In this document: positions 15,001 through 18,000 of the stretch, in pieces
How the letters are laid out: every line of letters begins with the position of its first letter
Position numbering within the stretch: the first letter of the stretch is position 1
DNA from: a virus
Taxonomy: Duplodnaviria > Heunggongvirae > Uroviricota > Caudoviricetes
Direction: 5' to 3' (one strand)
IMG/VR virus record: IMGVR_UViG_2851938318_000007
DNA: 60,122 nt
Made by a program: the position numbers

Positions 15001-18000
15001 TCTATTGCTGATCTAAAAGCGTTTGTAATAATTCGTATTAAAAGAGCTTTAATCTTACGATCTGAAAGATCTGCATTTGATATCTGAAGATTAAAATCAA
15101 GATACTTTTTCCCAAGCAATGATTTTAATGAATTAATAAAAGCTTCTTTAAAAATATCTAAACTTTCTCCAACTCTACGTTGGTAATAAGAACTAGGATT
15201 TATGGGGAAGGTGACCTTCAAAATATCAAAAGAGCTTACTTTAGTACTTAGTAAGTGTATATCATCTAGATCCGTTTGTATTTTTTTCGGGGAGGCATAG
15301 TCTAACCATGTTATTGATGGTTTAGAAAAACTATAATCAAGAATAAAGTCATGAGCTGATATTAGCTTACAATCAATACAATTATAAGGCAAATTATATT
15401 TTTGTCTGATGTGAGTAGACTCTTGTTCTTCGAGAGAAATCATATCAGAAAGAGCGATACGATTATGCATGATTCTAAAATCTTCAAGCATCGGACCACC
15501 AAAACCTATATATGTATATTCTTGAATATTTAGTCTTTTGCTTAAGAGGTTTAGGCTTTCGAGAAAAATCTCTCTATCAATAGACTTATTATGCCTTAAG
15601 TGATAGGGAATGTATTGTCCAGACATCACTTCACCTCTTCAATCACCGTATCAAAGCATTGCATCCCCACATCAGAAGCGCTAGCATCTTCATGTCCAAA
15701 GAAATATTTAGATAAAATTTTAACATCTTCTTTCTCTCTGGTGAAGATTATTCGTACAGTAGAGCTTTTTTTTACTGGGGTAGGCAGCTTAGGTGTATAT
15801 CGCCACTCATTTTTGTTTCTATTAGGGTTGGACCAGTTATTTTTTTTATCTTCTGGAGTTGATTGTGGGGTAATTTCAAATAAAGATTGAGCTTCATGTG
15901 ACTGAGCTGACTTAAGTAATTTTTTCCCTTCTTCAAGATGCTCACCTTTCCACTGATTGGTGAATCGAATAAAATGCATCATCCCTTCAATCATTTTATT
16001 TCGTACATCATTGTACAATGTAGAACTAAGATCGACACCTCGTTTCGTTGTTGTTATTGGTAATTTTTCTGGGTTTTTACTGGTAAAGCGAACAACCCCA
16101 GAAATTGCTATAAATTGGGTATGAAACCTTGGTACATTAGCAAAGCCCCAACCTGTGAGATGTGTCTTATCACAATATAGAACAACGCGGTCATTGCAAA
16201 TGACAGTCCATCCAGCATCATCAGAACTCCTTTTTTCTAAAACATCATCATTGTCATCTTCTAAATTTTTATAGAAGCCAACAACTAAATCGATATCAAC
16301 ATCGTCTATTTTAGCTTTATATATGTATGGTTCTATTTTAGAATGATCAGTTATGATGTTAATCGGATTATGTTCAACAACAACTCCATTTAATTCTATT
16401 TTAAATCCTTTTTGAATAATAAATGACAATGAGTGTTTTATCTGTAAAAAGAGATCAGTAAGATATGTGCTCTCATTAAATTTTTGTGCCACATTAGAAT
16501 GGAGTTTTTTTATCTCTATAGTTGTGCCTGTTGGATTTTTGTTATCATAGTCACTCTCGTGCATCGGTATTTTCCAACCATCACCATCGATCCAATCAGG
16601 TGTTATATCTACAGTGAATGCGCCATCGGGATTATTCGATTGTATTGAGCAATCTCTACCCATTTTAAAAATGGCTCTTTTCATACCAATACCATAGACG
16701 CCAACGGTGCCTTCATTTTCTTCTTCTTTTTGATGGGGTCGTCCCATTTTAAAAGCATATTCTCGGAAGCTTTTAGGGATACCTCCGCAATTGTCTTCTA
16801 TAATAAAGACATCTTTATTAATCGTAAGTTTCGCATAAAATCCTTCATATGGTTTTGAAGTTTTTTTTGTGTCTTTTATTGTACGTAAAGCCCCATCGAC
16901 GCAGTTATCAAGCAGATCAAGTATGGCATCGTTTAAGTCGATATCTCGAGTTAGCATACTTACAAAAAATCTTTTACTAGGACTAAAGTCTGCTGTTGGA
17001 GTCGTGTTCTCAGTCATAATTTACTCTCTATGTGTTTGGGAAAATAAATACCTTAAGTGCAAATTGTTGATTTTAAACGCTTCGCATGCGAAGTCAACGA
17101 TGTTAAGAAAGAAAGTGCATGTGATCTAACAGTATGTTTTTAAAAAAAGATTAGCTTTATGAGAATTCAGGACTGAATCCCGTGAGAGGAAAATAACATA
17201 TGTTATTGTTGCATTGCTGTGTTGTTTGGGATTTGTTGCACCATTCTGGCGTTGGTATATCTAGTTCGTTGTTCATTTTGTTAATTGTACAACAGGCAGA
17301 CAACAGAGAGCTTTTAGCCTAGTTAGCTTACGAAATTAAACAACTAAGATTATCGGCGGGGAGTGGTCACCGCTACTCTTTGGCTAGGAGACTTCAACGC
17401 AACCGCACACAACCAGCTTCGGCGGGTTTTGTTTTTTCCTGGCATTCTGGTTTACAATTTGCGTGCTAGCTTGAACAACTGGCATCTGCTGCACTGCGCC
17501 ATCGAGAGATTGAGAAATGGCGCATATACAACTGGTCAAACAAACTTCTTCTGGTTTACTTCTCCCGGCGACGCCGGAGAGTTGCGATTTTCTGCATCAA
17601 ATCAAAATAGGTGAGTGGATACACGCAGATTTTAAGCGTGTGCGTAACTACGCATTCCACAAGCGTTTTTTCAAACTCCTGCAACTGGGATTCGATTACT
17701 GGACTCCGGTCGGTGGGGCGATCACGCCTCGCGAACGAGAACTGCTGTCTGGTTTCGTTGATTACCTGTGCGAATCAGTTGGTCGGGAACACACGCCAGC
17801 CCTGAGTGATGCCGCAGAGCAATACCTTAACACCGTTGCGACTCGTAGAACCCGGGATACGGCGTTGCTAAAGTCGTTTGAGGCTTTCCGCGAGTGGGTA
17901 ACCATTCAGGCCGGATTTTACACCGAGCATATTTATCCGGACGGTAGCCGTGGGCGTCGGGCAAAATCCATCGCTTTTGCGAATATGGACGAAGTCGAGT

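What the first reader, a model, noticed from the sequence alone, without database searches (positions are those of the whole stretch)
17018..17360. Perfect 14-bp palindrome upstream of the GHKL operon in a 340-bp AT-rich leader
CTTCGCATGCGAAG (about 17070-17083), flanked by GTTGA/TCAAC arms, lies about 55 bp upstream of the GHKL start, inside a long non-coding AT-rich region. This is a candidate operator, suggesting regulated rather than constitutive expression.
Basis: seen in the sequence. Interest (0 to 1): 0.4.

Follow-up and report, generated by a model that had tools for sequence, protein, structure and literature searches.

The report
Palindrome inside an ordinary prophage promoter
The 14-base palindrome is real, but it fills the spacer of a conserved, ordinary sigma-70 promoter at the edge of a three-gene methyltransferase/ATPase cassette. 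Related cassettes keep the promoter but not the palindrome, and the supposed long "leader" is the wreck of a hok toxin gene that the cassette split.

Summary

It overlaps the last 2 nt of a -35 box (TTGACT, 17097-17092) and most of the 16-nt spacer before a -10 box (TAAAAT, 17075-17070).

In seven orthologous cassettes (GHKL 77-87% identical, different prophage contexts), TTGAC, TAnnAT and the 16-nt spacing are invariant. The palindrome is not: only 1-4 of 7 pairs are kept.

No second copy exists in the window, even with 3 mismatches allowed. The cassette encodes no detectable DNA-binding regulator. The number of palindromes in the window matches chance.

The "340-bp AT-rich leader" is not a leader. 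A roughly 3.84-kb cassette (about 13287-17127: m5C methyltransferase, Methyltransf_35, GHKL) is inserted into a prophage hokD-type toxin locus. The hok 5' part lies at 13173-13286 and the decayed 3' part at about 17128-17440.

Published arrays show the operon is expressed in lysogens and falls 6-9-fold at entry to stationary phase. Ordinary sigma-70 behaviour explains that without an operator.

Verdict: a real, unannotated promoter, with operator function unsupported but not excluded. Low interest.

The parts
17080..17093 (.). Perfect 14-bp palindrome CTTCGCATGCGAAG. It covers the last 2 nt of the -35 hexamer and 12 of the 16 spacer nt.
   Evidence: not conserved in orthologs
17092..17097 (-). 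-35 hexamer TTGACT of the GHKL-operon promoter
   Evidence: 10 of 12 match to consensus, 16-nt spacer; TTGAC invariant in 7 of 7 distinct orthologous promoters
17070..17075 (-). -10 hexamer TAAAAT
   Evidence: TAnnAT plus the following CA invariant in orthologs
17018..17063 (-). Predicted 5' UTR of about 46 nt. The start site near 17063 is inferred from the -10 position. Shine-Dalgarno AGAGAG lies at 17029-17024.
   Evidence: sequence; GAG/GGAG conserved before the ATG in orthologs; start site not mapped
15626..17017 (-). GHKL ATPase gene (463 aa, HATPase_c_3; Sakai ECs1955 / EDL933 Z2386)
14637..15629 (-). Methyltransf_35 (PF20553) gene, overlapping the GHKL stop codon; same operon (ECs1954)
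13518..14669 (+). Convergent C5-cytosine DNA methyltransferase gene (ECs1953 / Z2389; essentially the protein of PDB 3G7U)
13456..13485 (+). Promoter-like site for the methyltransferase gene (TTAAAA, 18-nt spacer, TG-n-TATAAT)
   Evidence: partly conserved in orthologs
13287..17127 (.). Inserted AT-rich cassette of about 3.84 kb. The right end is approximate, +/-20 nt.
   Evidence: Left junction: thousands of E. coli hok loci stop matching at 13265 or 13286. Right end: cassette-to-cassette homology stops at about 17100-17123. GC content 0.30-0.40.
13173..13286 (+). 5' part of a hok/hokD-type type I toxin locus (promoter region and start of the leader)
   Evidence: 92.6% and 89.5% identity to intact hok loci; alignment with empty sites
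17128..17440 (+). 3' part of the same hok locus, with a decayed ORF. Reading frame starts at 17198, with TAA at 17282-17284, a 1-nt deletion near 17298 and TAG at 17320-17322. The conserved 3' end is retained.
   Evidence: conceptual translation 51% identical to a Hok protein; Pfam HOK_GEF only 14.8 bits
17394..17492 (+). Conserved hokD 3' UTR and terminator element, found in more than 1300 E. coli genomes
   Evidence: it maps directly downstream of annotated hokD coding sequences
17192..17207 (.). Second perfect palindrome AATAACATATGTTATT, inside the hok relic where the hok start region aligns

Best explanation
The palindrome is the lineage-specific spacer sequence of a genuine sigma-70 promoter that drives the GHKL-Methyltransf_35 operon.

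The promoter (-35 TTGACT, 16-nt spacer, -10 TAAAAT, predicted start near 17063) sits about 30 bp inside the right edge of a mobile three-gene cassette. This placement lets the cassette express its genes wherever it lands, here from a repressed Rac/lambda-like prophage (Sakai Sp10 type). RNA polymerase contacts the two hexamers, and the spacer needs only the right length, so its sequence drifts. In the E. coli allele it happens to read as a perfect dyad.

Shown: the hexamers, spacing and their conservation; loss of the dyad in orthologs; the cassette boundaries; expression in lysogens.

Inferred: the start site; that growth-phase dependence comes from sigma-70 promoter physiology and sigma competition; that the dyad has no dedicated binding protein.
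For: -: the only strong minus-strand promoter match in 16800-17700 is 17097-17070 (10 of 12).
- in 7 distinct orthologous cassettes (GHKL 77-87% identical), TC-TTGAC, TAnnATCA and the 16-nt spacing are invariant. The 8 core palindrome columns have a majority fraction of only 0.54, and orthologous 14-mers keep 1-4 of 7 pairs.
- these cassettes sit in different prophage contexts.
- homology between cassettes ends about 5-30 bp upstream of the -35 box, and the flanks are a split hok locus.
- no other copy in the window with up to 3 mismatches.
- no HTH domain or small regulator ORF. The methyltransferase starts directly at motif I, with no N-terminal DNA-binding extension.
- the palindrome count in the window equals chance.
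- (PMC2241611): ECs1954 and ECs1955 are co-expressed in the lysogen and fall by log2 -2.61 and -3.22 at the stationary-phase transition, together with ribosomal and biosynthetic genes.
- (PMC2907692): the neighbouring methyltransferase gene Z2389 is 9-fold higher in an rpoS mutant, as expected from sigma competition.
Against: - A perfect 14-mer dyad falling exactly within a 28-bp promoter core is about a 1-in-1000 event for this particular promoter (15 positions x 4^-7, my estimate).
- A second perfect palindrome lies 100 bp away.
- The outer CTT...AAG pairs recur in 4 of the 6 distinct orthologs.
- All 172 E. coli genomes and all IMG/VR copies of this allele are identical, so there is no within-allele variation to test constraint.
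- No start site or binding data could be retrieved.
Confidence: 0.7

Rival explanations
1. Lineage-specific operator. A dimeric repressor encoded elsewhere (host or another prophage) binds the dyad and occludes the promoter, giving conditional expression of the GHKL operon in E. coli O157/O111.
For: Perfect dyad symmetry placed over the -35 box and spacer, the classical repressor position. The operon is not constitutively expressed.
Against: The dyad is not conserved in any ortholog while the promoter is. There is no second site in the 60-kb prophage window, including the immunity region. No regulator is encoded in the cassette. From memory only, I could not match the half-site TTCGCA to any E. 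coli regulator motif I know. The growth-phase change is shared with hundreds of sigma-70 genes.
Confidence: 0.15
2. Epigenetic feedback. The cassette's own m5C methyltransferase methylates cytosines in the palindrome (for example within GCATGC or CGCATGCG), and promoter methylation tunes GHKL-operon expression, as described for some restriction-modification systems.
For: A cytosine methyltransferase is the conserved partner of the GHKL operon. The palindrome is the only C/G-rich symmetric patch in the promoter.
Against: The orthologous methyltransferases are 65-82% identical and colinear through the target-recognition region, which suggests the same specificity. Yet their promoters share no C-containing symmetric motif in the spacer. 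The enzyme's specificity is unknown: PDB 3G7U is a structural-genomics entry.
Confidence: 0.05
3. Structural element: a hairpin, terminator or cruciform, or a recombination site left at the cassette junction.
For: It lies about 30-45 bp from the cassette's right end. The plus-strand RNA of 17060-17110 folds at -12.7 kcal/mol, z = -2.05.
Against: There is no U-tract and no terminator call. The minus-strand fold is unremarkable, z = -0.67. Orthologous cassette ends lack the dyad. No matching inverted repeat occurs at the other cassette end.
Confidence: 0.03

Closest known systems
Prophage 'moron' promoters (autonomous sigma-70 promoters carried by extra genes inserted in lambdoid prophages; concept from established phage genomics, my knowledge)
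   Same: AT-rich inserted DNA between conserved phage modules, with its own promoter(s). It is expressed from the repressed prophage.
   Different: A three-gene cassette with two inward-facing transcription units. It is inserted inside a hok toxin locus rather than between phage genes.
C-protein / C-box control of restriction-modification operons (e.g. C.PvuII, C.AhdI; my knowledge)
   Same: A palindromic sequence overlapping the -35 region of the non-methyltransferase operon in a methyltransferase-linked system.
   Different: There is no C gene and no paired C-boxes, and the dyad is not conserved among orthologs.
SsoII/EcoRII-type methyltransferase autoregulation through an N-terminal HTH (my knowledge)
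   Same: An m5C methyltransferase next to a palindrome-bearing promoter.
   Different: This methyltransferase begins at catalytic motif I with no N-terminal extension. Its own promoter is at the opposite end of the cassette.
hok/sok-family type I toxin-antitoxin loci (hokD of lambdoid prophages)
   Different: It is split by the cassette, and the ORF carries two stop codons and a frameshift. It falls below the Pfam HOK_GEF threshold, and no Sok-type RNA family match was found.
MORC/paraMORC GHKL ATPases of restriction-modification-like systems (Iyer, Abhiman & Aravind 2008, PMC2292703)
   Same: A GHKL (HATPase_c_3) ATPase genetically linked to a cytosine methyltransferase.
   Different: The partner is a Methyltransf_35 protein rather than a helicase or nuclease. 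Membership of a named paraMORC family was not tested.

Membership tests
sigma-70 promoter | -35 and -10 hexamers close to consensus with 16-18 nt spacing, correctly oriented upstream of the gene | tested here: met
   TTGACT, 16-nt spacer, TAAAAT; 10 of 12
sigma-70 promoter | Hexamers and spacing conserved in orthologous loci while surrounding bases vary | tested here: met
sigma-70 promoter | Mapped transcription start 5-9 nt downstream of the -10 box | not testable with these tools
   The EDL933 TSS table is truncated in the held copy, and no Sakai supplement is held. Expression of the operon in lysogens is documented.
Repressor operator overlapping a promoter | Dyad symmetry overlapping the RNA polymerase contact region | tested here: met
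Repressor operator overlapping a promoter | Dyad conserved (or co-varying symmetrically) in orthologous promoters | tested here: not met
   1-4 of 7 pairs kept
Repressor operator overlapping a promoter | Cognate DNA-binding regulator encoded nearby, or further sites of the same motif | tested here: not met
Phage CI/Cro operator | Same motif repeated in the immunity region of the prophage | tested here: not met
   The immunity region is inside the window (repressor 7744-8163). No match with up to 3 mismatches.
C-box / C-protein control | Small HTH C gene upstream of the controlled operon, and tandem C-boxes | tested here: not met
Intrinsic terminator | GC-rich hairpin followed by a U-tract | tested here: not met
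hok/sok type I toxin-antitoxin locus (for the 'leader') | Nucleotide homology to the hok mRNA 5' leader and 3' end | tested here: met
hok/sok type I toxin-antitoxin locus (for the 'leader') | Intact Hok ORF | tested here: not met
   two in-frame stops, a 1-nt deletion, HOK_GEF 14.8 bits (cut-off 22)
hok/sok type I toxin-antitoxin locus (for the 'leader') | Antisense Sok RNA gene | tested here: inconclusive
   No RNA-family match at E up to 10. No consensus minus-strand promoter apart from the GHKL promoter.

The most novel reading that the evidence does not exclude
In the E. coli O157/O111 allele the promoter spacer has recently evolved into a functional symmetric site. It could be an operator for a host or prophage repressor, or a methylation-sensitive switch read out by the cassette's own cytosine methyltransferase. 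Either would couple expression of the GHKL/Methyltransf_35 effector genes to the methylation or physiological state of the cell.
Probability: 0.07. Interest if true: 0.5.

Novelty: new member of a known kind. Interest (0 to 1): 0.15.

Why it matters
The main value is corrected annotation.

- It gives the GHKL-Methyltransf_35 operon of Sakai prophage Sp10 (EDL933 CP-933R) a defined, conserved promoter.
- It shows the palindrome is not needed to explain that promoter.
- It shows that the long "non-coding" region is a hok toxin locus disrupted by the cassette.

The cassette itself is a methyltransferase-GHKL-Methyltransf_35 triad conserved across bacterial phyla, with no assigned function. It is more interesting than the palindrome, and the defined promoter and boundaries make it easy to clone and test.

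Tried and rejected
- Rfam at gathering and permissive thresholds gave nothing credible in 16950-17560.
- The metagenome scan with the GHKL protein returned only two identical copies.
- The genome-contig scan returned only relatives at about 45% identity, too distant for promoter comparison.
- The first viral-contig pattern scan used a wrong spacer length (11 N instead of 10) and hit unrelated promoters. The corrected scan found only the identical E. coli allele plus one L082-type allele.
- A test for palindrome enrichment upstream of 79 distant GHKL homologs was negative (4.82 against 4.92 expected). This is a weak test, because in many of those loci the methyltransferase gene lies directly upstream in the same operon.
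- Published TSS data could not be used. The EDL933 table is truncated at about 0.6 Mb, locus tags are absent, and no Sakai supplement is held.
- PADLOC and PDB gave no match for the GHKL or Methyltransf_35 proteins.
- An apparent match of hok 'AGTTAAC' to window 'AGTCAAC' (17091-17097) was rejected as the junction, because cassette-to-cassette homology runs past it to about 17123.
- A PurR-box resemblance (CGCA...TGCG) was rejected because the half-site spacing differs by 6 bp (my knowledge of the PurR consensus).

Full report
**The observation**

The window is a Rac/lambda-like prophage of Shiga-toxigenic E. coli, running from the integrase gene onward. It is identical to Sakai prophage Sp10 over the region studied.

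The GHKL gene is on the minus strand, 15626-17017 (463 aa, HATPase_c_3). It is followed in the same operon by a Methyltransf_35 gene (14637-15629) and faces a convergent C5-cytosine DNA methyltransferase gene (13518-14669).

The palindrome CTTCGCATGCGAAG occurs once, at 17080-17093, which is 10 nt from the coordinates given and 63 nt from the ATG. GTTGA and TCAAC are present but lie 9 nt and 0 nt from the palindrome, so they do not extend it.

The window has 5 perfect palindromes of at least 14 bp against 3.8 +/- 1.9 expected. Within the 499-bp intergenic region the chance of at least one is 0.04. The palindrome is real but not statistically remarkable at the scale at which it was found.

**What surrounds it**

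A consensus scan finds one strong minus-strand promoter-like site in 16800-17700. It has -35 TTGACT (17097-17092), a 16-nt spacer and -10 TAAAAT (17075-17070), a 10 of 12 match. The palindrome overlaps the last two bases of the -35 box and 12 of the 16 spacer bases.

The predicted start is near 17063, which gives a 5' UTR of about 46 nt with AGAGAG before the ATG. This start position is inferred.

**Comparative test**

The GHKL protein has thousands of homologs. I retrieved orthologous cassettes with 64-87% GHKL identity from other enterobacterial prophages and islands. All carry GHKL + Methyltransf_35 + m5C methyltransferase, but in different surroundings.

The promoter region could be aligned in seven distinct sequences with 77-87% GHKL identity. 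In these:
- TC-TTGAC, TAnnAT-CA and the 16-nt spacing are invariant.
- The spacer varies freely.
- The orthologous 14-mers keep only 1-4 of the 7 palindromic pairs, and the eight core columns have a majority fraction of 0.54.

This is the signature of a promoter under selection with an unconstrained spacer. It is not the signature of a conserved operator.

All 172 complete E. coli genomes with the cassette are at least 99% identical in this region. IMG/VR holds only the identical allele plus one L082-type allele. Variation within the allele therefore cannot be used.

**Search for a partner**

- No second copy of the motif exists in the 60-kb window, even with three mismatches. The window includes the prophage repressor/Cro region and the methyltransferase promoter.
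- No HTH domain or small regulator ORF is present in or beside the cassette.
- The methyltransferase starts at motif I, without the N-terminal DNA-binding extension of self-regulating enzymes.
- The orthologous methyltransferases are colinear and 65-82% identical through the target-recognition region. Their promoters nevertheless share no symmetric C-containing motif, which argues against a conserved methylation switch.
- The sequence is not a terminator.

**The 'leader'**

The DNA upstream of the promoter is not a leader.

- Window 17232-17437 is 71% identical to an annotated Hok/Gef locus.
- Window 17394-17492 is 90% identical to the sequence immediately downstream of annotated hokD genes in more than 1300 genomes.
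- The matching hok 5' part (promoter region and start of the leader) lies 3.8 kb away at 13173-13265/13286, at 90-97% identity. Thousands of E. coli prophage hok loci stop matching exactly there.
- Empty sites show an uninterrupted hok gene.
- Homology between cassettes ends about 5-30 bp upstream of the -35 box, at 17100-17123.

Together these show that an AT-rich cassette of about 3.84 kb (about 13287-17127; GC 0.30-0.40) was inserted into the hok leader.

The remaining hok ORF is decayed. It has TAA at 17282-17284 in place of a conserved Glu codon, a 1-nt deletion near 17298 and TAG at 17320-17322. Read through these defects, it is 51% identical to a Hok protein, but it reaches only 14.8 bits on Pfam HOK_GEF.

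The cassette carries a promoter at each end, both pointing inward.

**Expression**

In Sakai, ECs1954 and ECs1955 are expressed during exponential growth. They fall by log2 -2.61 and -3.22 at the stationary-phase transition, in the same cluster as ribosomal and biosynthetic genes (PMC2241611).

In EDL933 the neighbouring methyltransferase gene Z2389 is among the top RpoS-negatively regulated genes, 9-fold higher in an rpoS mutant (PMC2907692).

So expression is growth-phase dependent. The pattern is the generic one for sigma-70 promoters under sigma competition (inference) and does not point to the palindrome.

**Conclusion**

The best-supported reading (about 0.7) is a real, conserved sigma-70 promoter at the cassette edge whose spacer happens to be palindromic in the E. 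coli allele.

A lineage-specific operator (about 0.15) or a methylation-sensitive site (about 0.05) cannot be excluded without experiments. Neither has comparative support.

The finding is ordinary. The useful results are the promoter, the cassette boundaries and the split hok locus.

**Wider context**

The methyltransferase-GHKL-Methyltransf_35 triad is conserved across phyla. All three genes are present in 70 of 80 distant loci, often as one co-directional operon.

It has no PADLOC match for the GHKL or Methyltransf_35 proteins, and both fall in PHROG families of unknown function. Only the methyltransferase has a solved structure, PDB 3G7U.

It fits the general theme of GHKL/MORC-like ATPases linked to cytosine methyltransferases in restriction-modification-like systems (PMC2292703). 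Its function was not addressed here.

Noticed in passing
window 13173-13286 and about 17128-17492: A prophage hokD-type type I toxin locus is split in two by the 3.84-kb cassette. Its ORF is decayed by two stops and a frameshift, while its 5' and 3' ends remain 90-97% identical to intact loci.
   Followed up: yes
window 13518-17017; loci L002-L081: The triad m5C methyltransferase + GHKL ATPase + Methyltransf_35 is conserved across many phyla. 70 of 80 distant loci have all three, often as one co-directional operon. There is no PADLOC hit for the GHKL or Methyltransf_35 proteins, and both are PHROG 'unknown function'. It is probably an uncharacterised restriction-modification-like or epigenetic system.
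   Followed up: partly
window 17192-17207: A second perfect palindrome, AATAACATATGTTATT, lies in the same intergenic region, inside the hok relic where the hok start region aligns. Two palindromes of at least 14 bp in 499 bp is unexpected (expectation 0.042), though this one is AT-only.
   Followed up: partly
L082 about 3705-3725, L083 about 3705-3725, L090 about 3705-3725: SOS-box-like sequences (CTGT-N8-ACAG) lie about 290 bp upstream of the GHKL gene in three orthologous loci with different neighbours. They are absent from the window.
   Followed up: no
window 13174-13201 and 13456-13485: The retained hok promoter region (TTGCGG, 16-nt spacer, TAGAAT, read by eye) now points into the cassette towards the methyltransferase gene. 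That gene also has its own extended -10 promoter-like site. Read-through from the hok promoter is possible but untested.
   Followed up: no
window 13518-14669: The methyltransferase is essentially the protein crystallised as PDB 3G7U (E = 1e-254). The entry names it only as a cytosine-specific methyltransferase, so its target sequence remains unknown.
   Followed up: partly
window 1557-1735, 20119-20373, 25304-25420, 54131-54247: Rfam matches: RalA antitoxin sRNA, STnc100, AgvB (anti-GcvB sRNA), and two IS3-type frameshift pseudoknots (ALIL) marking two IS copies.
   Followed up: no
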